Shown here: piece after piece, positions 11,701-34,729 of the stretch
How positions within the stretch are numbered: the first letter of the stretch is position 1
Layout of the letters: every line of letters begins with the position of its first letter
IMG/VR virus record: IMGVR_UViG_3300014205_000184
Coordinates: 67,162 to 130,218 of that record
From: a virus
Taxonomy: Duplodnaviria; Heunggongvirae; Uroviricota; Caudoviricetes
Strand: one strand, 5' to 3'
Length of the DNA: 63,057 nt
Translations under genes and position numbers: made by a program
The notes under the pieces: model-generated
What the model was told of the DNA's origin: nothing
The model's database searches: none
The model's input: the letters and a program-made list of their open reading frames with translations, nothing else

Positions 11701-12144
11701 TTAATCACCTATTGCACCGCTATTATCTACATCAAATGGTAAAAATTCTAATATTAATTCATATTTCTGCGTAGTCCCAGTAAAATTCCATTCTTTATTA
11801 AACGACATAAAATATCCTTCAAGTTTAGTTAAAGACGTATCGTGAAGCGTTATCTTAACGCCTACTTTATTAGTAATATATCCTTGTAATTGAGCCATAA
11901 ATGCATTAGTTACAGTATGCTTACTCCAACTTAATGTAAGTTGCTCGTAATTATACTTCGTAGAAGGAGAGTTTATGCCACGTGAACCATCAGCTAACGT
12001 TACAACCTGAGTTGTTGATGTATAATGTTGTGCAAACGTATTAACTGAACCTCTTGGTATAGATGTATCAGACACCCAAGTAGATGACCCAGTATCATAC
12101 TTCTGTACTAACCATTTCTGTACGTTATAATAATAATTTGACAT
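11701..12144 (-). CDS. Distal tail (Dit)-like protein
   Basis: 147 aa immediately downstream of the tape measure gene, the usual Dit position in siphoviruses. Confidence 0.58.
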   Translation of the reverse strand: MSNYYYNVQKWLVQKYDTGSSTWVSDTSIPRGSVNTFAQHYTSTTQVVTLADGSRGINSPSTKYNYEQLTLSWSKHTVTNAFMAQLQGYITNKVGVKITLHDTSLTKLEGYFMSFNKEWNFTGTTQKYELILEFLPFDVDNSGAIGD

Positions 12145-15100
12145 TAGCTATTATACCCACGTCTTGTCCCTAACGCAAATTCAGATGTTACTTGTGCATT
12201 AACCCCACCTCTACTTCTAGACCTTAGATAATAACTTTCCTGGAGTACGAACCCTTCAAACGAATGTCTTAACGCAACAAGATTTCTATTCACAATTTCA
12301 AGTTCTTTATTAGTAACATTGATTCTTGTTGTTATTTGGTTTGTTTGCTCTCTTACTTCTGTTGTAGTTTTACTTTTCTTCCCCATACTACTTACTAACG
12401 TACCAACTATATATAATACAGCTCCACCTATCATCGCATATGGGTTACCTGACATCATAGCCATAGCCCCAACGCCTTGCATTACTCCTCCGACTATGGC
12501 ACCAGCTTGGCTACCACCAGATTGTTTAGCATTAGCATATGCCGAATACCCTGTCATAACACCAGCCATAACCTGCCCACCAGATAAACTATTGCCTTTT
12601 TTCTGGCTTACATAAGCATTTAATTTTTCTCCTGATAATCCCTGCTTTACACCTTCTGCTCTTATTTCTGAATCTGTTTGTCCTGAGAATAAATTATTTA
12701 AAAAAGCACCGCCACCAGATTGTACAGCCCCAGACGCATCACCTGCACTAGCTGATTTAGCAACGCTTAATGTTGACGTAAGTGCTGACGCTAAATCTGG
12801 CAACTGAACAGTATTATCATCTATACTTTTTAGCGTAGCGTTAGTTTCTCTAAGTTCTTTTATCTCATCTTCAACAGATTTATAATAATCTTGAGTTGAT
12901 GTTGGAGTATATTTTGTACCTATAATTGACGCATTTGTTTCTCTTACAGCATTAAGTTCATCTTCTATGGATTTATAATAATCTTGAGTTGATGTTGGGG
13001 TGTATTTCTCCCCAGAAATAGCTTTATTTTCTTCTTTAATTTTAGTAAGTTCAGCTTCAAGCTTTGAATAATAATCTTGAACAGTATTCCCAGTAACTGA
13101 AGACTCAGCTCCTTCTAAAACTGAAACTGTTACACCCGTTTTAGGGTCTTTTTTAGCTTCTAAAAATCCTTGCACTATACCATCAATATGTGCTTGTCTT
13201 ATAATATCTTTACCTGCATCAATACCAGCTAGATGCGCTTTTGCAAATGGGCTACGCACTGCTTCTGACAAATCTAAGAACATACCTCGCATCATCGTAT
13301 CAACAGCTTGCTTTAAAATATCTTTTCTTATTATATTTGCAAAGTTCGTCAACATATCATTCAGAGTTCCAGTACCAGTGATTAAATCATCTAACCCATC
13401 AGTAAAAGCATCCTGAAATGCATCTTTTAAACCATAAACATAGCTTGTATACTCTTGTATAATTTCTTGCTGACGTTTTAATTTATCTTCATTACTAAGA
13501 TACTCATCGCCAAGCTGTTGTAGTTTTTGTAATTCTTCGACTTTAATAGCTATTATATTACGGCCCATTATCTCTTGCATTTTTGAAGAATGTTCTATTT
13601 GAGATAACGTCTCTTTTCTAACTAATAATTCATCCTTTTCTAATTTATTCCCTTCGGACCTTCTCTTAATTTCATCATCCATTAATTTTATTCTACGAGC
13701 TGTTTCTGCGGCACCTTTTGTGTTTCCTTCAGACATAAGTTTGTTAAAATATTCATATGCTTTAGCTCTTTTTTCTATTAATTTATCATCTGATATTTTA
13801 TCAGAATTCTGTATCATCTCCTTAAAGAGCATTAATGAAGATTTACGAGCTTTATCCATCTCAGCTCTAAACTTATACGTATCTTCAGCGGCTTTTAATA
13901 AATATTCACTCCATTTAACAAGTGCCCCACCAGCTAATATTAAAGCAAGTGCTATTGGATTTTTCCCAATCCAAAGCAATACCGCTTTTAATCCATTTAA
14001 CGCATTGGTAACATTTTTAGATGTTACACCTAATATTTTAATTACTGTATTAGCTTTTTCAGCTTCTAAACTTGCTGTAATTAAAGCTATTCCTAAAGCC
14101 CCAACTGCGGCAGTTAAAGATATCAGCATAATTTTTGACGCAAAAGAATCCTTAGTAACAGCAGTTACACCATCTGCAAAGTTAGTTAAAAGTTTTATAA
14201 TTTTACTTAACCCACTTATAAGTCCTGCTTGAGCTATCGCATTACCTAATTCCTGAAATGCTGTTTTTAGTGTAATTATCTGCTTATCAAACGACCCCAT
14301 TATCTCAGAGTTTTTCTTAACCGTATACCCTAAAGCTCCAAGTTGCTCATCTAGCGTCCTTATGTAAATATCTATTCCTTGAAACATAGCTCTTCCCATC
14401 TCTGTACGCCTCTGTCCAGCAAGAGCTTCCATTAAATCGCCTTGACCAGTCTCTGATAAACTATTATAAACTTTAGATATATCCATCATCACATCACTAA
14501 AGTCTCTCATTTTACCAGTATTTTGCATCGTAGCATTACCTATGGCATCTATATAAACCGGAACTTTAGCTATATTCTGTATATCTTCTCTAGTTATAGC
14601 TCTTTGATATCTTGTAAAAATTGTCTTAAACGCATCACCAATTTCACCACCTGTTCTTCTTGTAATAGTTCCAACAGAAGTAACCATAGCCGCTAATTCT
14701 TCAAATGTTATACCTACACTTTTTGCGGTTAAACCAACACGTAAAAATGCGTCTTCTAAGTCTTTGACCTCAACCGCCTCAGCATCAGCTACTTTAGCAA
14801 GTTTATCCTGTGCATACGCTACCTCTTCAGCAGACATACCCCAAGCATTCATCATACCAGTTAAATTACTAATAACGATACTCATTTCTTGACCGGTAAG
14901 ATTAACACCCATTGCGGCTGTTTCTGTAAGCTTCAATGATTCGCTAACACTCTTACCTTGTTGCGCCCAAGTCTTAGACGCTTGTGCGACTTCTACGACA
15001 CTTGTACCAGTAGCTCTAGCAACATTAAACGCTCCATCTGCAAACTGCCGCATTGAATATGTACTTTCACCAGAAGCTTGACGTATTCTAATTAATGCCA

Positions 15101-15560
15101 TTTCTAAATCAGAAAAATCTTTTATAGTTCCAACTATGGACTGTTTAACAAGATTAATGGTACCGTAAGCTATTTGCCATCCGGCGGCCCACAATGCAAC
15201 TTCACCTAAACTATTTTTTCTTTTATTACTAGCTTTAGATTCGGCATCGCTCGCTAAACGTATTGCTTGTTGATATTTATCAATAATACTAGTTGACTTT
15301 TTAGTAGCGGTTGATACTATCCCCATTTCAGATGAAACTTCACGGGATATTCTTTTATAATCACTAATCGCATAATCAAGCGATGCTTTTGGTCCTGAAC
15401 TGTATAATCCCCACTTTCTATCATCACTACCTTTAAGAAAATTAATCTTATACCCAAGCTCTTTCATTCTAGCTACAGTTTTTTCTCTAAAAGATTTAAA
15501 ACTAGCTTCGTCATTCTGCCAAACAACAGAATTAATTAATTCAAATTTTTCTCTTGCCAT
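12144..15560 (-). CDS. Tape measure protein (TP901-family-like core)
   Basis: 1138 aa, helical and Ala/Gly-rich; EVAQASKTWAQQG...LAKVADAEAVEVKDLEDAF...GGEIGDAFKTIFTR core; hydrophobic segments; follows the tail chaperone. Confidence 0.92.
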   Translation of the reverse strand: MAREKFELINSVVWQNDEASFKSFREKTVARMKELGYKINFLKGSDDRKWGLYSSGPKASLDYAISDYKRISREVSSEMGIVSTATKKSTSIIDKYQQAIRLASDAESKASNKRKNSLGEVALWAAGWQIAYGTINLVKQSIVGTIKDFSDLEMALIRIRQASGESTYSMRQFADGAFNVARATGTSVVEVAQASKTWAQQGKSVSESLKLTETAAMGVNLTGQEMSIVISNLTGMMNAWGMSAEEVAYAQDKLAKVADAEAVEVKDLEDAFLRVGLTAKSVGITFEELAAMVTSVGTITRRTGGEIGDAFKTIFTRYQRAITREDIQNIAKVPVYIDAIGNATMQNTGKMRDFSDVMMDISKVYNSLSETGQGDLMEALAGQRRTEMGRAMFQGIDIYIRTLDEQLGALGYTVKKNSEIMGSFDKQIITLKTAFQELGNAIAQAGLISGLSKIIKLLTNFADGVTAVTKDSFASKIMLISLTAAVGALGIALITASLEAEKANTVIKILGVTSKNVTNALNGLKAVLLWIGKNPIALALILAGGALVKWSEYLLKAAEDTYKFRAEMDKARKSSLMLFKEMIQNSDKISDDKLIEKRAKAYEYFNKLMSEGNTKGAAETARRIKLMDDEIKRRSEGNKLEKDELLVRKETLSQIEHSSKMQEIMGRNIIAIKVEELQKLQQLGDEYLSNEDKLKRQQEIIQEYTSYVYGLKDAFQDAFTDGLDDLITGTGTLNDMLTNFANIIRKDILKQAVDTMMRGMFLDLSEAVRSPFAKAHLAGIDAGKDIIRQAHIDGIVQGFLEAKKDPKTGVTVSVLEGAESSVTGNTVQDYYSKLEAELTKIKEENKAISGEKYTPTSTQDYYKSIEDELNAVRETNASIIGTKYTPTSTQDYYKSVEDEIKELRETNATLKSIDDNTVQLPDLASALTSTLSVAKSASAGDASGAVQSGGGAFLNNLFSGQTDSEIRAEGVKQGLSGEKLNAYVSQKKGNSLSGGQVMAGVMTGYSAYANAKQSGGSQAGAIVGGVMQGVGAMAMMSGNPYAMIGGAVLYIVGTLVSSMGKKSKTTTEVREQTNQITTRINVTNKELEIVNRNLVALRHSFEGFVLQESYYLRSRSRGGVNAQVTSEFALGTRRGYNS
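12840..13085 (-). repeat. ~93-nt (31-aa) tandem repeat, about 3 copies, inside the tape measure gene
   Basis: QDYYSKLEAEL...KYTPTST / QDYYKSIEDEL...KYTPTST / QDYYKSVEDEI. Confidence 0.85.
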
Positions 15561-19972: not shown

Positions 19973-20179
19973 CTATAAAATATTTGGTACTCGTGTTGAT
20001 TCTGACGCAGTTTTATTACGGGACTGTTCACTTGCACTTTTTAATCTAACTTGTTCAGAAGCATCTTGTAATCTAGTCTGCTCTAAAGACGAATTTAAAC
20101 GTGTTTGTTCCGAAGCAGTCTTCGTTCTTCTATTTGCGTATATACCCCACTTATTCCCCCACTTCTTACCCCATTTCAT
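19973..20179 (-). CDS. Small repeat peptide: (K)WG x3 followed by five 9-aa ASEQxR repeats
   Basis: MKWGKKWGNKWG then KTASEQTRL/NSSLEQTRL/QDASEQVRL/KSASEQSRN/KTASESTRV. Confidence 0.6.
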   Translation of the reverse strand: MKWGKKWGNKWGIYANRRTKTASEQTRLNSSLEQTRLQDASEQVRLKSASEQSRNKTASESTRVPNIL

Positions 20180-20376: not shown

Positions 20377-21645
20377 TTATACTAATTCTTGGCACATATT
20401 TACACCACACCCTGTTTTACAAGAACCACTTTTACATTTATTATCTTTAATATTCTGATTACATATAGGGTTGCTTCTTACTAAACTATTTCCTTGTTTC
20501 CACCACTCTCTATCAACTGCTCGCAACACTTCATCTATCCGAGATACAACTTGCGCTGTTTTCTTTCTTATTCTACAATATACTTCGGGCATCTTATTAA
20601 TCGTACCAGTTGTAAGCCAATTAGTATGCATACACCCCTTTTCACAGCCTAAATTTGCTATACATGTTTTACACTCTTCATTCCATTCGTTACGTGTATT
20701 TTTCTGATACTGAGCAACTCTATCATAAACTAATTCATCATACCCTTTAGCTGTACCAGCTAATACATCTTTTATATACCCATAATAAAATGGATGGTCA
20801 TAAGGTTCTTTACTGAAACGATGACACATGTACATATGCCCATCCCAAGAAACGCAGTGAAGCCCTCTCGCCCCACCACACCCGAAAGAAGTTTGACCTA
20901 AAAATCTTGCAACCATTTCTTTTGATAAATAATAATTATAAAAAGCCTTGCCAGTTTTCCACTTTTCTATATAATAATCGCCTAACTCTTCCAATGACTT
21001 TTCAAAATCACAAATATGTTCTTCTGACCATTCAGTATAATAATTTGGCATTGGGGATATCCCTTTTTCGAACCCCATCTCTTCAAAAAACTTTTGGCTC
21101 TTTAGTAAATCTTTAGCGAATTCTGGTTGCACCGTCATTCTGCGTGAGTGGTCGAAATCCTTCCACAGCTTATTTTTTTCTTTATACGCTTCAATTGAGT
21201 TGGGGCGATATTTTTCTTGTGCTTCAGGATGCCCATCAATTGAGCGTTGCGTCCATATATTAAAATATTTTAAAAAATTTATTTGTTCTTGCGTACCGGT
21301 TGTCCCGTTCGATAACGCTGAAAAATGCAATCTCATATTACGCTTAATGGAGCGAAGTATGAAATACTCCATTCTTTCAAAAGATAATAACGGCTCACCA
21401 CCATAAAATGTAATCGTAGTTGGTTTTATATTAACATTATTACCATTAGCATCCTTATTAATTGGATGTGATACCCCATGTTTAAATACTAAATCAAGCA
21501 CCAACTCTATCGTTTCGTCTGACATGTCCCCCATGGGGTGTTTCCCTGTTCCGACATAACAGTATGGGCATCTGAGATTACATTTTGATGTTATTTCTAC
21601 ATCAATACTTTCAATATGAAGCGGGTGCTTATTTAAATCCATCAT
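20377..21645 (-). CDS. Radical SAM enzyme with SPASM domain (peptide/protein maturase type)
   Basis: CNLRCPYC (CxxxCxxC); FYGGEPLL; SPASM CGGARG...DGHMYMCHRF...CKTCIANLGCEKGC...YC; no N-terminal RRE-sized extension. Confidence 0.92.
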   Translation of the reverse strand: MMDLNKHPLHIESIDVEITSKCNLRCPYCYVGTGKHPMGDMSDETIELVLDLVFKHGVSHPINKDANGNNVNIKPTTITFYGGEPLLSFERMEYFILRSIKRNMRLHFSALSNGTTGTQEQINFLKYFNIWTQRSIDGHPEAQEKYRPNSIEAYKEKNKLWKDFDHSRRMTVQPEFAKDLLKSQKFFEEMGFEKGISPMPNYYTEWSEEHICDFEKSLEELGDYYIEKWKTGKAFYNYYLSKEMVARFLGQTSFGCGGARGLHCVSWDGHMYMCHRFSKEPYDHPFYYGYIKDVLAGTAKGYDELVYDRVAQYQKNTRNEWNEECKTCIANLGCEKGCMHTNWLTTGTINKMPEVYCRIRKKTAQVVSRIDEVLRAVDREWWKQGNSLVRSNPICNQNIKDNKCKSGSCKTGCGVNMCQELV

Positions 21646-21656
21646 TCTCTCTCCTT

Positions 21657-23126
21657 TTATGCATAGTCTGTGTTACAAAGACAATTTGAATCACAAGCAC
21701 AGTCGGGTCCACAACCCAAATCTGTGTTACAAAAACAATTTATATTACAATAACAATCTGCATTACAATAACAATCTGTACCACACCCAGCATCACTATT
21801 ACAGGTACAGTTTACATTACAATTACAGTTCGGGCCACAAGGGTCAGCACCGCCACACCCATAATCTATGTTACAATAACAATTTATATTACAACTACAA
21901 TTTACATTACAATTGCAGTTAGGGGCACAGGGGTCAACACCGCCACACCCTGCATTAGTATTGCAATTGCAGTTTGCATTACAAGCACAATCTGCACATC
22001 CATAATTTGTATTACAGTTGCAGTCAGTATTGCAAGTACAATCTGCATTACATGGGCAATTAGCGCACCCATAATTCGTGTTACAATTACAAACATCACT
22101 GGGGCATTCTGTATTACAAGCACAATTAGGGGCACATGGGTCCGCCCCTCCGCAGCCAGAATCACTATTACACGTACAATTTACGTTACAACTACAGTTG
22201 GGAGAACAAGGGTCAGCGCCGCCACACCCATAATCAGAATTACAAGAACAGCTATCGTACCCGCACCCCATATCGCTATTACACGCCCCACATCCATAAT
22301 TAGTATTACAATTACAATCCCCATTACAAGCACAATCTGCATTACATGGGCAATTAGTCCCACATCCATAATTCGTGTTACAATTACAATCTGTATTACA
22401 TGGGCAATTAGCGTTACAAGCGCAATTAGGATAGCATGGGTCCGCCCCTCCGCAGCCAGAATCACTATTACACGTACAATTTACGTTACAAGCACAATTA
22501 GGAGCACAGGGGTCAGCACCGCCACACCCTGCATTAGTATTGCAATTGCAGTTTGCATTACAAGCACAATCTGCACATCCATAATTTGTATTACAGTTGC
22601 AGTCAGTATTGCAAGTACAATCTGTCCCATTACAAAAACAATCCGCATTACATGTGCAATTGGTCCCACATCCATAATTTGTATTACAGTTGCAATCAAT
22701 GTTACAAGTACAATCTGCATTACATGGGCAATTAGGTTCACAAGATGGGTCAGTATTGCAACTACAATTTACATTACAAGCACAGTTAGGGGCACACCCA
22801 TCAACGCCCTCACAGCCACAATCAGTATTACAAGCACAATCAATATTGCAGGCGCATTCTATTCCACAATGGTCAGATGAACAATAGCTATAATCCGGTA
22901 TCCATCTGTCTACAATATTATTATTTATATCTTTAATTTGAATCTTAATCATCCCATAATACTGCCAACCAGTAGAGCCCTTTACACCCGTCTTGGGGAA
23001 TTGCTTATTACCAGAACCTTGTTTAGTAGAAATATTACTATTTTGGTCAGAAGTTTCAGTTCCTTTAAACTGTAACAAAGAGTCTGAAGATTGCTCTATT
23101 TTAATCTTATCTGCATTAATAGCCAT
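21657..23126 (-). CDS. Cys-rich repeat protein (~81-aa N-terminal domain + ~408-aa tail with 111 Cys); candidate radical SAM substrate
   Basis: Hand count of 111 Cys; repeat units CxCNx[DN], CNTNYGC and GGADPC; ends 11 nt before the radical SAM gene starts. Confidence 0.85.
   Translation of the reverse strand: MAINADKIKIEQSSDSLLQFKGTETSDQNSNISTKQGSGNKQFPKTGVKGSTGWQYYGMIKIQIKDINNNIVDRWIPDYSYCSSDHCGIECACNIDCACNTDCGCEGVDGCAPNCACNVNCSCNTDPSCEPNCPCNADCTCNIDCNCNTNYGCGTNCTCNADCFCNGTDCTCNTDCNCNTNYGCADCACNANCNCNTNAGCGGADPCAPNCACNVNCTCNSDSGCGGADPCYPNCACNANCPCNTDCNCNTNYGCGTNCPCNADCACNGDCNCNTNYGCGACNSDMGCGYDSCSCNSDYGCGGADPCSPNCSCNVNCTCNSDSGCGGADPCAPNCACNTECPSDVCNCNTNYGCANCPCNADCTCNTDCNCNTNYGCADCACNANCNCNTNAGCGGVDPCAPNCNCNVNCSCNINCYCNIDYGCGGADPCGPNCNCNVNCTCNSDAGCGTDCYCNADCYCNINCFCNTDLGCGPDCACDSNCLCNTDYA
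21925..22624. repeat. 121-nt direct repeat (21925-22045 and 22504-22624, one mismatch)
   Basis: Direct comparison; offset 579 nt (193 codons). Confidence 0.9.
22135..22490. repeat. 56-nt exact direct repeat (22135-22190 and 22435-22490)
   Basis: Direct comparison; offset 300 nt. Confidence 0.9.
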
Positions 23127-23129
23127 GCA

Positions 23130-23366
23130 TTATCCGGGTATATAAGAAGGAACCCATTTTTCAACTTCTGTACCAACATTGTTTTTTATAGTTACTTTAA
23201 TCATTCCACTAAACACCCACCCACCTGTATCCTTTGGCCCAGACAACGCTCCGGCACCATTTAATGTTGAAAGATTAGATGTAGCGTTTGTCGTTTCTGT
23301 ACCTTTGAAATATATGAATGAGCCACTTGTATTTTCTATTATTTGCTTATCAGTATGTATGGCCAT
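23130..23366 (-). CDS. Stand-alone paralog of the Cys-rich protein's N-terminal domain
   Basis: MAIHTDK...FKGTET...GW..SGMIKVTIK...KWVPSY aligns with MAINADK...FKGTET...GW..YGMIKIQIK...RWIPDY. Confidence 0.8.
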   Translation of the reverse strand: MAIHTDKQIIENTSGSFIYFKGTETTNATSNLSTLNGAGALSGPKDTGGWVFSGMIKVTIKNNVGTEVEKWVPSYIPG

Positions 23367-23926
23367 TATGCTTCCTCAAATCTTGCTTGTTCTATATAAC
23401 TACCAGAAATTCTTTTTAAAATTGACAAATTCTCCCCATCTCTGACTATTTTCCATGTTCCATTTGTTGCGGAGTCTCCAAAATATTCTGCTGTAGTAGA
23501 CGCTCCTAAAAAATCTTCAGATGTTTTAAATGAATTGTTTCCAATATCAATATCAACATTAGCATTTGAACCATTAATGTTAAGCGGTGTGAAATTGAGA
23601 GCTGAGATGGTCATTGTTTTTGTAATATTATCAGAACTAAACGCAATTCCAGAACCAGTACGTAGATTTAATGTAGTAGTTAATGAATTAGCTGTAATAT
23701 CAGTTCCAACAACATTAACTTTATCAAAAAGATTTTGTAAACTAGCTCCAGATATAATATTTAAATTTTGTAATAATAATTGATGTTTTAAAATCTCATC
23801 ATCATGTTTATTGTAATCCGTAGCTCCAGCAACAGTATCATCGCCTTCAGAATAATCTGGGTCTAATCTTTGTGGATTTCCAGGATAGCTAGGATATAGA
23901 GATTCGTTGATTGACATTATCGGCAC
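23366..23926 (-). CDS. Short fibre-like structural protein
   Basis: Shares a ~46-aa module with ORF 9634..11697; C-terminal FGDSATNGTWKIVRDG motif. Confidence 0.65.
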   Translation of the reverse strand: MPIMSINESLYPSYPGNPQRLDPDYSEGDDTVAGATDYNKHDDEILKHQLLLQNLNIISGASLQNLFDKVNVVGTDITANSLTTTLNLRTGSGIAFSSDNITKTMTISALNFTPLNINGSNANVDIDIGNNSFKTSEDFLGASTTAEYFGDSATNGTWKIVRDGENLSILKRISGSYIEQARFEEA

Positions 23927-24896
23927 CTTCTAATATTAAATCATTTTTTATCATTATATGTATTAATTCTTTAAATTTTACTCTTGGCTCCCACCCTAAT
24001 GCGTTTTTAGCTTTATCGTAATTACCAATCAATAAATTCACATCAGACGGTCTAAAAAATTTAACATCACTTACAACATAATCTTTCCAATCTAAACCAA
24101 CTGCTGAAAATGCTACCTCTGCAAACTCTTGAACAGTATGCACTTCATTCGTAGCTATTACATAATCATCCGGATATTCTTGCTGAAGCATAAGCCACAT
24201 AGCTTCTACATAATCTCCTGAAAAACCCCAATCACGTTTAGCTGTTAAATCACCGAGATATAGTTTATCTAACTTACCCGCTTTAATTTTAGCTACAGCA
24301 TTGGTTATTTTACGAGTTACGAACTCAAACCCTCTACGTGGGCCTTCATGATTAAAAAGTATCCCACTACATGCGAATATATTATATGCTTCTCTATAGT
24401 TTCTAGTCAAATCAAACCCTGCGACTTTTGATATACCATAAGCTGAACGTGGGTGAAATATAGTATTCTCTGTTTGTGGTACTTCATGCACTTTACCAAA
24501 CATCTCGGAACTTGCGGCAAAATAAAACTTGCATTTCGGAGCATATTTTTTTATAGCTGAAAGTATATAATGCGTTCCATTAATATTCGTATTCATCGTG
24601 GAGAACTCATCTTCAAAAGAATATGATACAAACGATTGAGCGGCAAGATGATAGCATTCATCGGGTTGTACTTTTTCTACTACATCACATATACTAGGAT
24701 AAGATTCTAAACTAGCAGAATGTAACGTTATCTTATCAAGTAAATGCTTAATTCTCCATAATCTGTGGTCGGGGTCTTCAATTGCAACACGACGAACGAT
24801 TCCGTGAATTTCATATCCTTTACTCAAAAGTAACTCTGCTAGATAGCTTCCATCCTGGCCACTTATCCCCGTTATTAATGCTCTCATTCTATTCAC
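23889..24896 (-). CDS. gmd: GDP-mannose 4,6-dehydratase
   Basis: ALITGISGQDGSYLAELLLSKGYEIHG; YHLAAQSFV; ASSEMFG; PRSAYGISK; FVTRKIT; RDWG. Confidence 0.95.
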   Translation of the reverse strand: MNRMRALITGISGQDGSYLAELLLSKGYEIHGIVRRVAIEDPDHRLWRIKHLLDKITLHSASLESYPSICDVVEKVQPDECYHLAAQSFVSYSFEDEFSTMNTNINGTHYILSAIKKYAPKCKFYFAASSEMFGKVHEVPQTENTIFHPRSAYGISKVAGFDLTRNYREAYNIFACSGILFNHEGPRRGFEFVTRKITNAVAKIKAGKLDKLYLGDLTAKRDWGFSGDYVEAMWLMLQQEYPDDYVIATNEVHTVQEFAEVAFSAVGLDWKDYVVSDVKFFRPSDVNLLIGNYDKAKNALGWEPRVKFKELIHIMIKNDLILEGADNVNQRISIS

Positions 24897-25761
24897 TCCT
24901 CTTGAAGTTTTTATTCATTTCAACAGCACCAGGTATATCTAACCAATCTTTCTTTATACGTATCTTGTCATTAAACTGCATCATAGTTTTTAATATAACG
25001 GGGTCATAACCATTGTCTTCTGCTAACTTAATAAACGCCATGGGGTCTTTAACTAGACATCTTCCGCCAACACCAAAATCCCCATCATGCCCAGGAACTT
25101 TTCTATGCGTTCCAATTCTACCATCAAATTTTAAATAATCTTGAATTTTATCATAATTAACGCCTATTTTTTTACATATAAAATATAATTCGTTAGCTAA
25201 CATAACTTGACCTGTTAAGAAAATATTACTTATATATTTAAGTGTTTCGGCTTCGGTGCAGGTTAATTTTATATAATTTATCTTATCACCATATGCGTAA
25301 TAAAATATAGATTTTACCGCTTCGTAAATCGTATCAGAGTTTGCTCCTATCACTATTCTAGATGTGTTTAACATATCATCATTTGCACTTCTCTCAGTAA
25401 GGAATTCGGGGCAGAAAACATAGTCAAATTTTGGATATTTTTCAGATAATCTGTCTGTGCTACCAGATACTGCGGTGCTTCGGATAATTATAATTTTCCT
25501 CTTATCTGTTAAGGAGTTTATATCCTTAATTGAATTATCTATATAGTCTAAGCATATACTGCCATCTATGCGCATAGGAGTAGGTAAACATAAAAATAGA
25601 AAATCTGCATCTTCAACAATAGCAGACCTACTCCCAATATTTTTATACTTATCATAGCGTATTACATTTATATTTTCATGTGCTTTTTCTTCAAACAAAT
25701 TAGCGGTTGCTTCACCAACGTTCCCAACTCCCCAAATACCAATATTTATTTTTTTATTCAT
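24889..25761 (-). CDS. UDP-glucose/GDP-mannose dehydrogenase family protein (short form)
   Basis: GIWGVGNVG Rossmann motif; FLCLPTP; RSTAVSG; FCPEFL; catalytic GGRCLVKD; no C-terminal UDP-binding domain. Confidence 0.85.
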   Translation of the reverse strand: MNKKINIGIWGVGNVGEATANLFEEKAHENINVIRYDKYKNIGSRSAIVEDADFLFLCLPTPMRIDGSICLDYIDNSIKDINSLTDKRKIIIIRSTAVSGSTDRLSEKYPKFDYVFCPEFLTERSANDDMLNTSRIVIGANSDTIYEAVKSIFYYAYGDKINYIKLTCTEAETLKYISNIFLTGQVMLANELYFICKKIGVNYDKIQDYLKFDGRIGTHRKVPGHDGDFGVGGRCLVKDPMAFIKLAEDNGYDPVILKTMMQFNDKIRIKKDWLDIPGAVEMNKNFKRSE

Positions 25762-26525
25762 TCTATCGATTCCTCCATTTCTAGTTTCATGTCCAGTAAA
25801 TGTACTTTTCGCTCTATCTGTATTTGTTCGTATCTATTTTGCCAATATTTTCTACTTCCATTTGTTTTCATATGACAATTATGACACAATGATATTAAAT
25901 TTACGCCATCATTATTAAATTTATTATAATCTATATGATGAATATCTAATTTCGTAAATAGTTCTCTTTGAGGTGCGCTACACTCCATACAATTATAGCT
26001 ATCTCGTTTTCTGATAAATTCTTTTAGCTTGTCATTAAACTCTCTAGGATAATTTAAAATTGAATTACCATTAATATAGTTGCTCGCATTTTCACCTATT
26101 CTATTCTTAGAGTTCCATTCACCCACGCACTTTCTATCGCAAAAATGGTTTTTTTGATTTTTATATTGATAATTTGGGTCTTCACACTGCTTCCCGCAAT
26201 TATCACAATTAAATTTTATCCTTTTTGTATAGGCTGGATTTTTTTCACCCACTTGATTTTTAGACAACCATGCTCCGTAACATTTATAATTATTTTTACA
26301 AAAATGGTGTTTATTGTGTTTAAATTTATATGGAGTAAGCAATAAATCACTACCACAAGTGTCGCATTTTACTTTAATCTTATCTTTATACATTGGGTTT
26401 TTTATGCCAACATTGCTTACGGATACCCACTTTCCACGACACTTATTACTACAAAATCTTTGTTTATCATGTTTATGTTTTTCAAACAATTTATTACAAA
26501 TTTCGCATTTAAACATTATCTTCAT
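25758..26525 (-). CDS. HNH homing endonuclease with N-terminal CxxC...FCxxKC repeats
   Basis: IRKRDSYNCMEC...LDIHHIDYNKFNN...NLISLCHNCH. Confidence 0.88.
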   Translation of the reverse strand: MKIMFKCEICNKLFEKHKHDKQRFCSNKCRGKWVSVSNVGIKNPMYKDKIKVKCDTCGSDLLLTPYKFKHNKHHFCKNNYKCYGAWLSKNQVGEKNPAYTKRIKFNCDNCGKQCEDPNYQYKNQKNHFCDRKCVGEWNSKNRIGENASNYINGNSILNYPREFNDKLKEFIRKRDSYNCMECSAPQRELFTKLDIHHIDYNKFNNDGVNLISLCHNCHMKTNGSRKYWQNRYEQIQIERKVHLLDMKLEMEESIE

Positions 26526-27517
26526 TTTTTATTCCATATAGATGGTGCCTTGCTATTCCATAACTCCAAAGGTTCACATAACCATTCCTGTGCTCCTATA
26601 CTTTTACACCACACAGCCATTTCATTCAAACATTCTTGAAGAGACCTAGTTTCTTTATACCCCAACTCATTAACACTTTTATCGTAAGTAGAATAAGCAT
26701 ATTTCACTTCTTTTGGTCTTGCGGGTAAATGTTCAATATTAACTTTTCCAACAACATCCATAGCTTTTAACGTCATCTCAGCGGCTTCGTTTAATGTTAT
26801 TGGTTCAATTCCACCTATGTTATAAATTTTACCATCTGTAAACTCTTCTAGACACTTCACATAACAAGGCAACGAAAATGAGATATAGCTAAAAGCCCGC
26901 ATCTGATTCCCATCACCAAACACATATATTTGTTTCTCACCTAACATAATTCTGTTCATCCATATAGCAAAAACATTTCTGTATAAATCAAACGCTTGTC
27001 TCTCTCCGAACACATTATGCGGTTTAACTATTGTATACTTAAAATCGTGTATATCAGCTAAACATTGAGTTGACCACTCCATAGCTGTTTTGTTGATTCC
27101 ATATATATCTTCTGGTCTACACTCCATATCTTCATTAAACGGTGGTATCTGCTGACCATATGTTGCCATAGTACTAAACATTATCATCTTCTTAAACTTA
27201 ACTTTAATACACGCATTAAGAAGATTCATATATGAAAGATAGTTGTCCTCTGTGCTTTTTAAAGGTTCAAACAGCGAACCTATCTCACGTGCGCTTGCGG
27301 CGCAATGAAATACATGAGTTGGTTTTATATCTTGTATAAGCTTTTCAGTAGATACTTTATCTCGTAAATCACAAACGCTAAATGTATGGTTTGTAGTATT
27401 ACGTATATTGCCGCCAGAAAGATTATCAATTCCAACAACATCGTGCCCCATTTTTGTAAGTTCATCGGCTATCCATGAGCCTATTAAGCCCGCACTTCCC
27501 GTTACTAGAATTTTCAT
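26522..27517 (-). CDS. NAD-dependent nucleotide-sugar epimerase/dehydratase
   Basis: KILVTGSAGLIGS; FHCAA; YGINK (YxxxK); KPHNVFG. Confidence 0.92.
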   Translation of the reverse strand: MKILVTGSAGLIGSWIADELTKMGHDVVGIDNLSGGNIRNTTNHTFSVCDLRDKVSTEKLIQDIKPTHVFHCAASAREIGSLFEPLKSTEDNYLSYMNLLNACIKVKFKKMIMFSTMATYGQQIPPFNEDMECRPEDIYGINKTAMEWSTQCLADIHDFKYTIVKPHNVFGERQAFDLYRNVFAIWMNRIMLGEKQIYVFGDGNQMRAFSYISFSLPCYVKCLEEFTDGKIYNIGGIEPITLNEAAEMTLKAMDVVGKVNIEHLPARPKEVKYAYSTYDKSVNELGYKETRSLQECLNEMAVWCKSIGAQEWLCEPLELWNSKAPSIWNKK

Positions 27518-28173
27518 TTTCGCACCTCGACATCTTTCTTTCGTAATAAAGCATTTATATCAAACCCATTGTCATTCGTATTAAACAATAGTAATTCTAC
27601 AGCGTCTTTTCTTTTATCAAGACAAGCCTTCAATTCATCGGGATTCATCTCGCAATAAGCATAATCATATTTACCTATATGCGGACCATTATCATGTAAG
27701 AAAAATCTTCTATCTGGTATTGTTATTGCTATCAGACCACCAGGTTTTAAAACTCTTATCCATTCTGCAAGTGCTAAGTCAGTATTCGGGATATGCTCTA
27801 AAGTATGACTAGATATAATATACCCTACGCTGTTAGTCTCAAATGGCAAATTGTGGTCAGTAACAACTACATCGCAAGTATCAACACCAACGTTAACGTG
27901 AAGCACCCCTGATATTGGGGTTCCGCCTATACCTAATCCTACACCCAGATGTTTACATGTTGCCTGAGTAAATAAAAATAGCGAATCACGCTGTATTTGT
28001 GATGGGATGTTACGATTTACGAACTGATAACGTGGCGGACCGTCCCACCATCCGTCAGATTTAGATTGCTCACGAACATCTTTATATCTATGGTCGTTAA
28101 ATTTAGAGTACACATCTGATTTTACAGGGGTATTTTTCTTATCCTCAACTATCATCTCATCTAGTGTTTTCAT
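27514..28173 (-). CDS. Class I SAM-dependent methyltransferase
   Basis: GLGIGG; LPFETNSVGYIISSHTLEHI; EWIRVLKPGG. Confidence 0.85.
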   Translation of the reverse strand: MKTLDEMIVEDKKNTPVKSDVYSKFNDHRYKDVREQSKSDGWWDGPPRYQFVNRNIPSQIQRDSLFLFTQATCKHLGVGLGIGGTPISGVLHVNVGVDTCDVVVTDHNLPFETNSVGYIISSHTLEHIPNTDLALAEWIRVLKPGGLIAITIPDRRFFLHDNGPHIGKYDYAYCEMNPDELKACLDKRKDAVELLLFNTNDNGFDINALLRKKDVEVRK

Positions 28174-29192
28174 ATTGTTCCTTCTAGAATGCTTAACATA
28201 TACATAGTTCGCTGTTTACATGTATGATACTTCATTAAATGCTCATGCCCTGCCATCGCTATTGCGTTTCGCTCATCATCATGAGATAGATAGTACTCTA
28301 AAAGTTCGTTAAAATTAGATAGGTCGTCTTTAATTATAACGCACGTCTCTTTATCCTTAAAAGGAAAAGGTATGATTATTTTAGGGTCAATAGTCATCAT
28401 CATAGTATTATACGATGGTATCTCCCAATATCTTACACAGTCTTTTCCGTGACCAATACACGAGAGTCCAATTTTAGAGCTCGCTATCTTTGACATATAG
28501 TCCTTGTATGCCATTTTACCATGGCGAGGTTTATTTCTGTCCCAATCTGCGACTCCCGAATCAATATCTACTACGCTATTATCAATGTTAAACTCGTGAA
28601 ACTTTTGTACTAATTTAACTCGTAATTGATTTGTGTTACCTAATATTGAAAACACATTTAAATCTTTTTTTAAATCATTAATTTCTGGTAATTTATTCAA
28701 AAATGCAGAGAATGGTAATGGATATATTCTTATTCCATTATACGATGTCTCGTACATCATTTCTCGTTTAAATATGTACTGTGGATTAAACTCATTAATT
28801 AATTGAGTCTGTAAATTTGCTCCGTCTTCACCATCAATAAGCACCAATTTATTAGCTAATAACTTAACTTTATCTTTAATATATCTAAAAGATTTTACAA
28901 CGTACTCTCTAGGCGATGCTAAAATTATATAATCAAAATCGTTAATCTGCTCACATATCTGGTCTAAAGTAAGTTCTGGTAGATGTGGTCTTATTAACTC
29001 ATAATCAACTTTGCCAGTCCACCCAGTCTTACCATCTGGTAATATATAATCATCGTCCGGTGCTCCAGTCCTCCAACGCTTTAACATTGGATAGACATAA
29101 ACGCTACTCTCGCCAACCAAGTCGCATAGTCCTTCAAAAACCATACTGGTTAGATAATCTTGCTGGGGGTCAACTAAATAAAGTACTTTCAT
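28170..29192 (-). CDS. Glycosyltransferase (CgeB-like GT-B)
   Basis: LVLIDGED; YIFKRE; YMSKIASSKIGLSCIGHG..CVRYWEIP; AIAMAGHEHLMKYHT. Confidence 0.75.
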   Translation of the reverse strand: MKVLYLVDPQQDYLTSMVFEGLCDLVGESSVYVYPMLKRWRTGAPDDDYILPDGKTGWTGKVDYELIRPHLPELTLDQICEQINDFDYIILASPREYVVKSFRYIKDKVKLLANKLVLIDGEDGANLQTQLINEFNPQYIFKREMMYETSYNGIRIYPLPFSAFLNKLPEINDLKKDLNVFSILGNTNQLRVKLVQKFHEFNIDNSVVDIDSGVADWDRNKPRHGKMAYKDYMSKIASSKIGLSCIGHGKDCVRYWEIPSYNTMMMTIDPKIIIPFPFKDKETCVIIKDDLSNFNELLEYYLSHDDERNAIAMAGHEHLMKYHTCKQRTMYMLSILEGTI

Positions 29193-29932
29193 TCTATCGC
29201 TTCCTCCATTTCTAATTTAATATCTAATAAATGCACTTTTCGGTCGATTTGTACCTGTTCGTAATGGTTTTGCCAATATTTTCTATTTCCATTTGTTTTC
29301 ATATGACATGTTTTACATAATGAAATTAAATTAATGCCATCATTGTTTTCTTTATCGTAATCTATGTGATGTACGTCCAGTGCATTAATAAGTTCTTTTT
29401 GAGGGACCTCGCACTCTACACATTTATAACCATCCCGATGTCTAATATTATCTTTTAAAAATTTATTAAATTCTGTCGGGTATGATAAGGTTGAGTTACC
29501 GTGAATATAATTTGGTGAATTTTCACCAATATGATGTTTTGAGTAATATCTCCCCATACATTTCAGACTACAAAATTGATTATCGTTTCTATTTTTATGT
29601 GATTTTATTCTTATAACTGTATTTAAACAATAACCGCATTTTACGCTAACTCTACTATGATTAAACCTCCATTCATGAAAACACTTCCTTGAGCAAAATT
29701 TATTTAATTGTTTTTTGAAATGGTCAACACGCTTAATGATGTGTTTTTTACAATTATCGCATTTAACTTTTATTTTAGCAATTTTTCTATATGGTAACCT
29801 TTTTTTACCGATATTGTTTTCAGATAGACATTTTCTATTGCAAAAATGCAACTTTGATTTTTTAAAACGGTACTTATGCCTAAGCACTATTTTTCCACAA
29901 TTATCACATTTACATCTAATCTTAAGCTTCAC
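29189..29932 (-). CDS. HNH homing endonuclease, paralog of 25758..26525
   Basis: IRHRDGYKCVEC...LDVHHIDYDKENN..INLISLCKTCH; near-identical C-terminal 60 aa. Confidence 0.88.
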   Translation of the reverse strand: MKLKIRCKCDNCGKIVLRHKYRFKKSKLHFCNRKCLSENNIGKKRLPYRKIAKIKVKCDNCKKHIIKRVDHFKKQLNKFCSRKCFHEWRFNHSRVSVKCGYCLNTVIRIKSHKNRNDNQFCSLKCMGRYYSKHHIGENSPNYIHGNSTLSYPTEFNKFLKDNIRHRDGYKCVECEVPQKELINALDVHHIDYDKENNDGINLISLCKTCHMKTNGNRKYWQNHYEQVQIDRKVHLLDIKLEMEEAIE

Positions 29933-30890
29933 AAGTACACTCCATCATATTTCTGTCAAGATACTTAACTACTCTTTTTGGTAAATCATTTATTTTTAAA
30001 ATATTATCGTGTACTTGAACTTGAGGTACATCCCAAAAATCACTACATCCCCAATACTTAGCAAAAATAACCCTAGAATAATCCATTCTATATGCAAAAC
30101 CTTTATCTGCTATTCGTTTATGCTCTTCTATATCTAAAGCTAATTTTTTAGAACTTTTACTCATAATATCAATATATTCATTTTTATCTAAAAAACTATT
30201 AAACTCTGTTATTGATAATTCTCTATTATTTGAAAATGTTTGCGAACCCCAATGTTCCATAGCTGGATATGGCACATGAAACGACCATAACTCATTACTC
30301 CATTGCTGAAAATTAAACCATGTCTCTTCGTAAAATGAACGTATATAATTAGCTGGGAACCCAAATGAACCGTCTTTATACTTTACATTTTTCCAGTTTT
30401 CACGCTTAAACGTAAAGCAACATCCCACTGGACTTCCTACACGCCCCACGGGGACATCATAATTAGGTAGAGTATACTGCTTATTAGGGTTGCCTGTCTT
30501 GGGGTCTATTTGAATCAAATTCCAACCAAGACTACCTACATTTTCGTTATTGTCAAAGAAGTAAATAACTGATTCTAACCAGTTACCATCATTTATGCAT
30601 ATATCATCATTGAATAAAACCTGGATATCGCAATCATCATAAAACGCTGTTAAATCATTCCAACTAGCAGGTATCCCCATGTTTTTATCATGTTTTATTA
30701 ACGGAACACCGTAACTTGAACACACTTCTTCTAGTTTGTTGACCATTTCAACATCTTTAGTACCATCATCTAATACCACAATCTTAAAGTTGTGTTTATT
30801 AGGTGTGTATAAGAATATACTCGCAAGAAGATTATTTATGCGGGCATAATCATTATACGTAGGTATTCCTATCGAAACCTTATGTTCCAT
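29922..30890 (-). CDS. GT2-family glycosyltransferase
   Basis: VSIGIPTYN; IVVLDDG; NMGIPASWN; VLFNDD (DXD); FYEET. Confidence 0.85.
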   Translation of the reverse strand: MEHKVSIGIPTYNDYARINNLLASIFLYTPNKHNFKIVVLDDGTKDVEMVNKLEEVCSSYGVPLIKHDKNMGIPASWNDLTAFYDDCDIQVLFNDDICINDGNWLESVIYFFDNNENVGSLGWNLIQIDPKTGNPNKQYTLPNYDVPVGRVGSPVGCCFTFKRENWKNVKYKDGSFGFPANYIRSFYEETWFNFQQWSNELWSFHVPYPAMEHWGSQTFSNNRELSITEFNSFLDKNEYIDIMSKSSKKLALDIEEHKRIADKGFAYRMDYSRVIFAKYWGCSDFWDVPQVQVHDNILKINDLPKRVVKYLDRNMMECTCEA

Positions 30891-30915
30891 AGCACCCCCA
30901 TTCTTTATTTATCTA

Positions 30916-33697: not shown

Positions 33698-34729
33698 TTA
33701 CTCCAATACATTAGTTGTTAACGATGGAGCAGTATACGCATCGGTCGATATATACCCAACATACCCTGCCGCACGATACAGCACTTGCGTTGTGAACCAT
33801 CTTAGATAAGACGCTTCAATCAACGGATATGCCGCATTATAACTTCCAGGTGTAAGCAGAAGCCCCTGAGCAGACGGATTCTTTTTCTGAATAAATCTTA
33901 CAGGTTTATCTTCACCAGGTCTTGTCCCAATTATCATAAAATACCCATCTGGCATCCACTGAGTTTCAACCCAATTTATACCAAGCAGAGAACCTTTGAA
34001 ACCTTCTCTCATCACCTGATTAGGTAAGTCTTGTCCAAGATTAGCATATGTTGCCGTAGTTGTCAAGAACAAACCAATCAAATCTTCAAGGTCTTTTATG
34101 AAATCAGCATTACAGAACCCCACAAACGGTGCACCCCAACCATGCTCTTTTATATGCTCTTTAGCCGCAGTCAAATCTGAAACTCTCAGAGTTGCCGAAC
34201 CTGTAGAAACATAATGAGTATGCGTTGTAAGGAACGACGCCTGACCATATATAGGTGGTCTGTCTTGCTTTTCAGCAGTATCATAATACGCCGCACCAGC
34301 ATAAAAACCATTAGAACTGACGTTATTCATAGAATTCTCTATAATAACAGCAGTAACTAGGTCTCTATCTGTAGCTAAAGCTTTAGCCGCAAGCTTCCCA
34401 ACTTCAGTTGAAGACGACTGTTCGCTCATCAACCAATCAAACGTATACGTTATACCGAGACCATACTTTTCAGTATCTCTCTGCCTCTTCCCATAAACAA
34501 TCTTATGTGAAGTAGGTTTCTCTATTTCCCCAAGTTTACGAAACTTCCATTTCGATGTATTGACAGGGAACTTGTAATACGATTCATCTCCATCAACGCA
34601 TACCATATTTCTGATATCAAGCGTTTCCTCGGCATTATATATGTCAAGTATAGGGAGAACTGTATTGTAATACACTTCATTCAAATCAATTCCATCAGTT
34701 GTAGTAAAACCTCTTAATTCAACACCCAT
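33698..34729 (-). CDS. Major capsid protein (HK97 fold)
   Basis: 343 aa after protease and decoration genes; KYGLGITYTF, LTAAKEHIKEHG, GSLLGINWVETQWMPDGY motifs; followed by a hairpin. Confidence 0.8.
   Translation of the reverse strand: MGVELRGFTTTDGIDLNEVYYNTVLPILDIYNAEETLDIRNMVCVDGDESYYKFPVNTSKWKFRKLGEIEKPTSHKIVYGKRQRDTEKYGLGITYTFDWLMSEQSSSTEVGKLAAKALATDRDLVTAVIIENSMNNVSSNGFYAGAAYYDTAEKQDRPPIYGQASFLTTHTHYVSTGSATLRVSDLTAAKEHIKEHGWGAPFVGFCNADFIKDLEDLIGLFLTTTATYANLGQDLPNQVMREGFKGSLLGINWVETQWMPDGYFMIIGTRPGEDKPVRFIQKKNPSAQGLLLTPGSYNAAYPLIEASYLRWFTTQVLYRAAGYVGYISTDAYTAPSLTTNVLE

What the first reader, a model, noticed from the sequence alone, without database searches (positions are those of the whole stretch)
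20377..23366. Phage radical SAM/SPASM maturase paired with a giant Cys/Asn-repeat protein inside the virion module
Seen: a SPASM radical SAM gene starts 11 nt after a 489-aa gene. That protein's ~408-aa tail has 111 Cys in CxCNx[DN] units, including about 23 NxxC motifs (NIDC, NTDC, NVNC, NADC...). The pair sits among fibre-like and head-tail adaptor genes. The enzyme has no RRE-sized N-terminal extension, and the substrate has an ~81-aa folded-looking domain instead of a short leader. Established: NxxcB links Cys to the Asn beta-carbon in NxxC, PapB links Cys to Asp, and QhpD cross-links a protein subunit. Inference: a RiPP-like chemistry builds a poly-thioether virion appendage with tens of cross-links, for protease resistance, metal binding or adhesion. 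I know of no described phage system like this, but I could not search.
Basis: partly seen in the sequence, partly recalled or inferred. Interest (0 to 1): 0.95.

Follow-up and report, generated by a model that had tools for sequence, protein, structure and literature searches.

The report
Radical-SAM-matured cysteine-repeat phage fibre
A 130-kb phage from landfill and groundwater carries a mobile gene cassette: a fibre-like protein set ending in a 408-residue tail with 111 cysteines, plus a radical-SAM enzyme of the thioether-forming kind. The enzyme probably staples that tail with many Cys-to-Asn/Asp links, which I found described only for one archaeal protein and for no virus.

Summary
A 489-aa protein (111 Cys, all after residue 81; 38 CxCNx[D/N] hexads) is followed 11 nt later by an rSAM/SPASM enzyme with no RRE.

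The pair is conserved. Every relative of the enzyme at 50% identity or more whose upstream DNA could be read (8 loci) has a CxCN-repeat ORF just upstream. Relatives at 35-40% identity have CxCDxE, CGCECPEE or CECECE tails on fibre-like proteins. Flanking genes share no detectable similarity, so the cassette is mobile.

The conserved register is Cys followed by N/D/E at +3 (99 of 111 Cys; shuffles give 33±4). Cxx[D/Q] is the motif that CrpC cross-links in the archaeal protein CrpA (PMC13692751, 2026).

Six loci repeat the layout fibre stub / bare N-domain paralog / N-domain plus Cys tail / enzyme. Two unrelated N-domain types are used.

The enzyme is closest to PapB and CteB but falls below every curated family cut-off.

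The chemistry, the number of links and the virion location are all inferred. This scan has noted the same kind of system on other phage DNA. I found no paper on it in phages. Verdict: a new variant of a known kind.

The parts
23366..23926 (-). 186-aa Cys-free fibre-like protein, first gene of the cassette; its stop overlaps the next start (TAATG)
   Evidence: Weak phrog_677 'baseplate wedge tail fiber connector' hit (E 0.006). The nearest Atlas clusters are all viral fibre types: T4 gp9/10 N, T7 tail fibre N, head fibre (leads only). Its C-terminal motif recurs at the end of the gene upstream of the bare domain in L007 and L171. The equivalent genes in L005, L009 and L172 hit tail-fibre PHROGs or are collagen-like.
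23130..23366 (-). 78-aa 'bare' paralog of the Cys protein's N-terminal region, with no Cys
   Evidence: 44% identical to residues 1-79 of the 489-aa protein. 54% identical to the 78-aa ORF at the same position in L007, and similar to P0032 in L171.
22884..23126 (-). N-terminal region (aa 1-81) of the 489-aa protein, with the conserved GW..GMIK...W.P.Y hairpin (type A)
   Evidence: G53, W54, M59, W75 and P77 are invariant in 7 sequences. AlphaFold models strands 53-65 and 71-82 at pLDDT 65-73 and the rest below 50. In P0001 and P0002 the same region lies between a long fibre part and the Cys repeats.
21657..22883 (-). 408-aa Cys/Asn/Asp repeat tail: 111 Cys, 38-40 CxCNx[D/N] hexads joined by GCG / GCGGADPC.PN linkers
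   Evidence: 99 of 111 Cys have N/D/E at +3, each with its own acceptor (shuffles 33±4, maximum 46). The DNA shows 18-90-nt tandem periods at 64-83% match. AlphaFold leaves it unfolded, pLDDT about 30.
20377..21645 (-). 422-aa radical SAM/SPASM enzyme without an RRE
   Evidence: Pfam Radical_SAM. Best NCBIfam hit is PapB NF047865 at 157 bits over the whole profile, below the cut-off of 340. Best solved relative is CteB. AlphaFold pLDDT 86.7; Foldseek ranks CteB first, then anSMEcpe.
21559..21582 (-). CX3CX2C radical-SAM cluster motif (C22, C26, C29)
   Evidence: Invariant in 18 relatives.
20575..20880 (-). SPASM region with seven invariant Cys (256, 274, 325, 328, 334, 338, 357) for two auxiliary [4Fe-4S] clusters
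   Evidence: The fold matches CteB and anSME.
20380..20463 (-). Variable C-terminal tail of the enzyme with 5 further Cys, ending in a GCGV.MC motif that resembles the substrate's GCG linkers
   Evidence: pLDDT below 50. Function unknown.

Best explanation
This is a mobile phage cassette that builds an enzymatically cross-linked fibre part. It has four genes: a fibre-like stub (186 aa), a bare N-domain protein (78 aa), the same N-domain carrying a 408-aa CxCNx[D/N] repeat tail (489 aa), and an RRE-less radical SAM/SPASM enzyme.

Proposed mechanism, by analogy with CrpC, PapB, CteB and NxxcB:
- The enzyme cleaves SAM reductively.
- The 5'-deoxyadenosyl radical abstracts a side-chain hydrogen from the Asn or Asp three residues after a Cys.
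- The Cys thiolate, held on an auxiliary Fe-S cluster, closes a non-alpha thioether (ranthionine), giving a four-residue ring.

Each hexad C1-x-C3-N4-x-D6 offers two such pairs, C1 to N4 and C3 to D6. The tail therefore has up to 99 candidate sites. The matured tail would be a densely stapled, reduction- and protease-resistant module at the distal end of a virion fibre.

Substrate recognition would go through the conserved N-terminal region instead of an RRE. The bare paralog would either co-assemble with it on the fibre or assist maturation, as CrpB does.

What is shown: gene anatomy, conservation of the pair, co-variation of the repeats, enzyme family placement and the +3 register. What is inferred: the chemistry, the number of links, virion incorporation and the role of the bare paralog.
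For: 1. Co-occurrence. A CxCN-repeat ORF lies directly upstream of the enzyme in L001, L002, L003, L004, L005, L007, L009 and L172, where the enzyme is 50-75% identical. Several of these ORFs were not gene-called or were cut by contig ends. Enzymes at 35-40% identity sit beside fibre-like or giant proteins ending in CxCDxE (L008), CGCECPEE (L006, L011, L016), CECECE (L014) or mixed Cys/Asp/Glu repeats (L015).

2. Mobility. None of 13 flanking window proteins has a BLAST hit in those loci, although the enzyme reaches 75% identity. The cassette therefore moves as a unit.

3. Register. 99 of 111 Cys have N/D/E at +3, against 33±4 in shuffles. This offset is the one kept in all relatives with Asx/Glx-bearing repeats (0.62-0.98). 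It equals the C-x-x-Q/D motif cross-linked in CrpA (PMC13692751).

4. Enzyme. It has a complete rSAM plus a 7-Cys SPASM. The best profiles are PapB, SCIFF/CteB and QhpD, all thioether formers. The best structure match is CteB.

5. Fibre context. The repeat is fused behind Laminin_G_3/DUF2341, tail-protein or collagen-like fibre parts in P0001, P0002 and L015. The upstream stubs hit tail-fibre PHROGs. The window's cassette lies between the head and tail genes.

6. Layout. The order fibre / bare paralog / tailed paralog / enzyme recurs in six loci with two unrelated N-domain types.

7. Wider pattern. 58 of 80 phage loci with rSAM/SPASM relatives have a Cys-dense ORF on the same strand within about 3 kb, against 6 on the opposite strand.
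Against: There is no chemical evidence for any cross-link. The enzyme falls below the curated cut-off of every thioether-maturase family, so its reaction cannot be transferred by homology. anSME, a Cys oxidase rather than a cross-linker, is the second-best structural match and also lacks an RRE. CxC-rich sequences bind metals without any modification. Two overlapping four-residue rings per hexad have no precedent, and the real number of links could be far lower. No proteomic or structural evidence places the protein in virions; the head-tail adaptor assignment of neighbouring genes is faint, and the fibre assignment of the 186-aa gene rests on weak hits. The N-terminal region is modelled confidently only as a hairpin.
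Confidence: 0.55

Rival explanations
1. The Cys tail is a metal-binding or disulfide-locked module (metallothionein-like, or a Cys-ladder solenoid as in insect antifreeze proteins). The neighbouring rSAM enzyme either makes only a few links or has another role, such as cluster or metal handling.
For: CxC spacing and 23% Cys are typical of metal-thiolate proteins. AlphaFold leaves the tail unfolded, as for apo-metallothioneins. The authors of the CrpA paper suspect a metal-related role even for the cross-linked protein. The same phage has a tail fibre with 48 Cys and no dedicated enzyme next to it.
Against: It does not explain why an rSAM/SPASM gene travels with the repeat in every locus. It also does not explain why an Asx/Glx is kept exactly at +3 of nearly every Cys across very different repeat types. 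Metal binding and cross-linking are not mutually exclusive.
Confidence: 0.2
2. The product is not a virion part. It is a giant RiPP-like protein released at lysis or acting inside the cell (for example a competitor toxin, metal scavenger or host-takeover factor), carried as a moron inside the structural module.
For: The cassette lies next to a clearly accessory sugar/glycosyltransferase island. It is mobile between unrelated phages. L004 has a C39-type peptidase about 4 kb downstream.
Against: In P0001, P0002, L008, L014 and L015 the repeat is the C-terminal part of a long fibre-like protein, not a free peptide. No protease or exporter is conserved beside the pair.
Confidence: 0.12
3. The enzyme is an anSME-like oxidase that converts Cys to formylglycine or another oxidised residue, rather than forming cross-links.
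For: anSMEcpe is the second-best structural match and, like this enzyme, has no RRE.
Against: The anSME profile scores 43 bits, against 157 for PapB. The anSME substrate motif C/S-x-P/A-x-R cannot occur, because the protein has a single Arg, at residue 74 and outside the tail.
Confidence: 0.05

Closest known systems
CrpC / CrpA / CrpB of Methanococcus voltae (PMC13692751, 2026)
   Same: An rSAM/SPASM enzyme acts on a large Cys-repeat protein rather than a short peptide. The C-terminal repeats carry Cys-x-x-acidic/amide motifs, and ranthionine links were shown by MS. A second protein (CrpB) shares the substrate's N-terminal region and raises the extent of modification, like the bare paralog here.
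   Different: CrpC has an RRE and belongs to TIGR04463, where the phage enzyme scores 39.6 bits against a cut-off of 525. CrpA has ten 17-residue repeats, not about 40 hexads. It is archaeal and cellular, with no fibre context. CrpB has its own C-terminal repeats, whereas the phage paralog has none.
PapB / PapA (freyrasin) ranthipeptide system, NCBIfam NF047865
   Same: It is the best-scoring profile and covers the whole model. It forms thioethers from Cys to the beta-carbon of Asp in repeated CxxxD motifs.
   Different: The score of 157 bits is far below the cut-off of 340. The substrate is a short leader-core peptide with six motifs. The spacing is CxxxD, not CxxN/D.
CteB / SCIFF (PDB 5WGG, 5WHY)
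   Same: It is the best solved sequence and fold match. It has an rSAM plus a SPASM with two auxiliary clusters, and it forms thioethers.
   Different: CteB has an N-terminal RRE of about 95 residues that is missing here. Its substrate is a 45-residue peptide.
CXXX-repeat system (NCBIfam TIGR04115 maturase and partners), found here in gut-phage loci such as L055
   Same: An rSAM/SPASM enzyme lies next to long Cys-repeat proteins in phage genomes. The L055 enzyme passes the family cut-off (457 bits).
   Different: The window's enzyme scores 58.6 bits against a cut-off of 350. The repeats there are C-x-x-x with Gly/Ser/Thr and no +3 Asx rule. As far as I know its chemistry has not been characterised.
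NxxcB / NxxcA (PMC9389541)
   Same: It is the precedent for Asn as a beta-thioether acceptor of an rSAM enzyme.
   Different: The acceptor lies before the Cys (NxxC). That register is not conserved among this enzyme's relatives. The substrate is a short peptide.
QhpD / QhpC
   Same: An rSAM/SPASM enzyme cross-links Cys to Asp/Glu in a protein subunit. Its profile scores 76 bits.
   Different: It makes three links in a small subunit of a periplasmic enzyme. Its family cut-off is not met.

Membership tests
Radical SAM / SPASM superfamily | CX3CX2C cluster motif and SAM-binding core | tested here: met
   C22/C26/C29 and the GGEP motif are invariant. Pfam PF04055 scores 42 bits against a cut-off of 29.5.
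Radical SAM / SPASM superfamily | C-terminal SPASM domain with seven Cys for two auxiliary [4Fe-4S] clusters | tested here: met
   C256, C274, C325, C328, C334, C338 and C357 are invariant in 18 sequences. The fold matches CteB and anSME.
PapB family ranthipeptide maturase (NF047865) | Score at or above the curated cut-off (340 bits) | tested here: not met
   157.2 bits, full-length match.
CrpC family (TIGR04463) | Score at or above the curated cut-off (525 bits) | tested here: not met
   39.6 bits, N-terminal core only.
CXXX-repeat maturase (TIGR04115) | Score at or above the curated cut-off (350 bits) | tested here: not met
   58.6 bits. A gut-phage enzyme (L055) scores 457 bits.
Ranthipeptide (RiPP) systems | RRE domain on the maturase or a partner that binds a leader peptide | tested here: not met
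   Only 11 residues precede the rSAM core, and the alignment to CteB starts at CteB residue 97. No Pfam or NCBIfam domain was found in the neighbouring small ORFs.
Ranthipeptide (RiPP) systems | Short precursor with a leader and a Cys/acceptor core | tested here: not met
   The substrate candidate is 489 aa, and 797-801 aa in fused relatives. The Cys-acceptor motifs are present.
Ranthipeptide (RiPP) systems | Non-alpha thioether links shown chemically | not testable with these tools
   Needs mass spectrometry or NMR of the co-expressed protein.
Anaerobic sulfatase-maturing enzymes | Family score at or above cut-off, and substrate motif C/S-x-P/A-x-R | tested here: not met
   TIGR03942 scores 43 bits against a cut-off of 349. 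The protein has a single Arg, outside the Cys tail.
Phage tail/head fibre proteins | Recognisable fibre domains in the protein or its fused relatives | tested here: inconclusive
   The window's 186-aa gene has only a weak phrog_677 hit and Atlas leads. Relatives carry collagen-like, tail-fibre PHROG or lectin domains. No virion data.

The most novel reading that the evidence does not exclude
Phages use an RRE-less radical SAM enzyme to turn a ribosomal Cys/Asx repeat into a hyper-cross-linked material at the end of a virion fibre. Each hexad would carry two interlocking four-residue thioether rings, on the order of a hundred links in one chain. A bare copy of the docking domain would set how many such tails each fibre carries, or would chaperone maturation. 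This would be the first enzymatic, RiPP-type covalent reinforcement of a virus particle, and by far the most densely cross-linked ribosomal protein known.
Probability: 0.3. Interest if true: 0.9.

Novelty: new variant of a known kind. Interest (0 to 1): 0.74.

Why it matters
If it holds, RiPP-type radical chemistry is not confined to small secreted peptides or one archaeal protein. It would be a widespread way for phages to harden or functionalise virion fibres.

The wider pattern supports this: 58 of 80 phage loci with related enzymes carry a Cys-repeat ORF. The repeat types range from CxCNxD here to CXXX repeats in gut phages.

It would give structural virology a new kind of covalent virion modification, beside HK97 isopeptide chainmail and glycosylation. 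It would give enzymology an RRE-independent maturase that works processively on about 40 tandem motifs. It would also offer protein engineers a genetically encoded, densely stapled scaffold.

There is a practical point too. These ORFs are systematically missed or mis-called by gene finders, and assemblies break at them, so the family is nearly invisible in protein databases.

Tried and rejected
- blastn of the cassette against 50,697 phage records found no match. tblastn of the enzyme found only relatives at 22-26% identity.
- A viral-contig scan with the single enzyme sequence found nothing. The alignment-based scan worked.
- Word-index and exhaustive HMMER searches with the 489-aa protein found only P0001, P0002 and one bare-domain protein (P0032). 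P0033 and P0034 are compositional noise.
- AlphaFold of the 489-aa protein with a 7-row alignment gave pLDDT 35, so nothing could be learned about the tail's fold.
- Complex prediction of the enzyme with substrate residues 1-110, three 4Fe-4S clusters and SAM scored 0.02, 'no answer'. This is evidence neither way.
- BLAST of 13 flanking window proteins against the related loci gave no hits. I used this only to show that the cassette is mobile.
- The small ORFs downstream of the enzyme (61 and 68 aa) are not conserved in related loci, so I dropped them as cassette members.
- Sequencing runs: no RNA holder is listed. Laying contigs showed only that short-read unitigs break inside the repeat.
- The Atlas search with the 78-aa protein gave nothing above chance.
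- I considered and rejected two ideas: an anSME-type reaction (no motif, low score) and NxxC as the operative register (not conserved in relatives).
Full report
**Setting**

The window is the second half of a 130,218-bp IMG/VR virus record with direct terminal repeats. GC content is about 33%, and every gene is on the minus strand.

In the direction of transcription the order is:
- head maturation protease (35163-36473) and major head protein (33698-34729);
- a 9-kb sugar and glycosyltransferase island (23889-33183);
- the cassette studied here (20377-23926);
- about ten small or unassigned ORFs;
- the tape measure protein (12144-15560) and large distal tail genes.

Near-identical DNA occurs in a landfill metagenome, probably the source, and in a groundwater metagenome from another study.

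**Observation**

The finding is accurate.

The 489-aa ORF (21657-23126) has 111 Cys, all after residue 81. It also has 81 Asn and 37 Asp in the 408-aa tail, and 38 C.CN.[DN] hexads separated by GCG-type linkers. Other structural proteins of the window have 0-3% Cys.

The rSAM gene starts 11 nt downstream behind a strong ribosome-binding site. It has CX3CX2C and a full seven-Cys SPASM signature, and only 11 residues before the core.

The 78-aa ORF upstream is a Cys-free paralog of the N-terminal 79 residues.

Two details need correction:
- NxxC occurs 53 times, not about 23.
- The N-terminal 'domain' is modelled with moderate confidence only as a beta-hairpin at residues 53-82.

**Is the pair real?**

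The Cys protein has only two database homologs, P0001 (801 aa) and P0002 (797 aa). Each is followed directly by an rSAM gene 75% or 61% identical to the window's.

I then went through the enzyme's own homologs (29 proteins at 36-75% identity). Every locus with an enzyme at 50% identity or more and readable upstream DNA holds a CxCN-repeat ORF immediately upstream. These loci are L003, L004, L005, L007, L009 and L172.

In L005 the gene caller had called the opposite strand. In L003 and L004 the ORF is cut by the contig end. Short-read unitigs break inside the window's own repeat. This explains why an exhaustive HMMER search of 1.8 billion proteins found almost nothing.

More distant enzymes (35-40% identity) sit next to fibre-like or giant proteins whose C-termini carry other repeats: CxCDxE (L008), CGCECPEE (L006, L011, L016), CECECE (L014) or mixed Cys/Asp/Glu (L015).

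None of 13 flanking proteins of the window has any BLAST match in these loci. The cassette, not the phage backbone, is what is shared.

**Which register?**

For each family member I counted how often N/D/E/Q lies at each offset from a Cys.
- In the window, 99 of 111 Cys have N/D/E at +3, each with its own acceptor. Shuffled tails give 33±4, with a maximum of 46.
- The +3 rule holds in all close relatives (0.88-0.98).
- It also holds in the distant repeat types (0.62-0.81), including the CTCDCNY hexads of phages whose enzymes are only 22-27% identical.
- The -3 rule (NxxC) holds in 74% of Cys here but falls to background or below in the distant relatives.

Each hexad C1-x-C3-N4-x-D6 therefore contains two Cxx[N/D] pairs.

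This is the motif type, C-x-x-Q/D (for example CAVD), within which CrpC was shown by mass spectrometry to install ranthionine links in the 28.8-kDa protein CrpA (PMC13692751). Asn as a beta-thioether acceptor has a precedent in NxxcB (PMC9389541).

**The enzyme**

The best NCBIfam profiles are PapB (157 bits, full length), nif11-type, SCIFF/CteB, and QhpD. All are far below their curated cut-offs. TIGR04463 (the CrpC family) scores 39.6 bits, TIGR04115 (CXXX-repeat) 58.6 and anSME 43.

The best solved relative by sequence and by fold is CteB, aligned from its residue 97, that is, after its RRE. anSMEcpe is next.

The enzyme is therefore an unmodelled, RRE-less branch nearest to the thioether-forming maturases. 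Its reaction is inferred, not transferable by family membership.

**Architecture of the substrate set**

Six loci share the order fibre-like stub / bare N-domain / N-domain plus Cys tail / enzyme.
- Window, L007 and L171 have N-domain type A (the GW..GMIK..W.P.Y hairpin).
- L005, L009 and L172 have an unrelated type B domain.

In P0001 and P0002 a long fibre part is fused in front of the type A region and the Cys repeats, and there is no bare paralog. That fibre part is Laminin_G_3/DUF2341 in P0001 and a tail-protein PHROG in P0002.

The stubs are collagen-like (L172) or hit tail-fibre PHROGs (L005, L009). The window's 186-aa protein has only weak fibre-type leads.

Two unrelated N-domains each keep a bare copy, which argues that the bare copy has a function. 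Either it co-assembles with the tailed copy on the fibre, or it helps maturation as reported for CrpB. I could not decide between these. The one complex prediction gave no answer.

**Wider pattern and prior knowledge**

Of 80 phage loci holding rSAM/SPASM relatives, 58 have a Cys-dense ORF on the same strand within about 3 kb, against 6 on the opposite strand. Among them are gut-phage CXXX repeats whose enzyme is a true TIGR04115 member.

This scan has already noted the same kind of system in other phage genomes. Their follow-ups, like mine, found no paper describing it.

My literature searches found nothing on phages. One cyanophage paper lists such a maturase as an 'antibiotic synthesis gene'. 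The CrpC paper does not mention phages.

**Verdict**

The enzyme-substrate pairing is well supported by comparative genomics. Thioether stapling at Cxx[N/D] is the best mechanistic reading, at about 0.55. Virion incorporation is likely but unproven.

The general kind has been known since 2026: an rSAM/SPASM enzyme cross-linking a large Cys-repeat protein. The new elements are the phage fibre context, the hexad with two candidate pairs, the absence of an RRE, and the bare-paralog layout. I class it as a new variant of a known kind.

Noticed in passing
window 1783-4569 (-): A 928-aa distal tail-fibre-like protein has no Cys in its first ~500 residues and 48 in the last ~420 (CYGYC, CYCY, CCC motifs). 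There is no Cxx[N/D] rule and no adjacent rSAM gene. It could be a second Cys-rich virion part of the same phage, and it is relevant to the metal/disulfide rival.
   Followed up: partly
window 20380-20463 (-): The enzyme's poorly modelled C-terminal tail carries 5 extra Cys and ends in a GCGV.MC motif that resembles the substrate's GCG linkers. Similar Cys tails occur in several, but not all, relatives. It might be a pseudo-substrate or an extra metal site.
   Followed up: no
window 23889-33183 (-): A 9-kb island lies between the major head protein and the cassette. It holds a GDP-mannose dehydratase, a UDP-glucose dehydrogenase-like gene, an epimerase, a methyltransferase and four glycosyltransferases (one of 755 aa). 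This suggests virion or host-surface glycosylation in the same module.
   Followed up: partly
L005 5136-5786 (called gene on the minus strand): The public gene call lies on the strand opposite the 387-aa Cys-repeat ORF. Gene finders mis-call these repeats, which hides the family from protein databases.
   Followed up: yes
L006 / L011 / L016: Phages of 40-190 kb carry proteins of about 1,500-2,000 aa with long poly-Ser tracts and a globular domain. These proteins end in CGCECPEE repeats, one small gene upstream of an rSAM 40% identical to the window's.
   Followed up: partly
L007 191-2461: A B12-binding radical SAM gene is interrupted by an intein (Hint / LAGLIDADG hits), a few genes upstream of the cassette in a related phage.
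   Followed up: no
L024 5001-6110: The rSAM match in this gut-phage locus contains 2 in-frame stop codons. This could be stop-codon recoding or a broken gene.
   Followed up: no
window 19973-20179 (-): A 68-aa ORF is built of a WG(K/N)KWG start and four ASEQ(T/V/S)R(L/N) repeats, just downstream of the cassette. It is not conserved in related loci.
   Followed up: partly
window 25758-26525 (-): A 255-aa protein with 17 Cys in repeated CxxC...C motifs and a C-terminal HNH-like HH..N..C.NCH segment sits inside the sugar island. It is probably a homing-endonuclease-type insertion.
   Followed up: no
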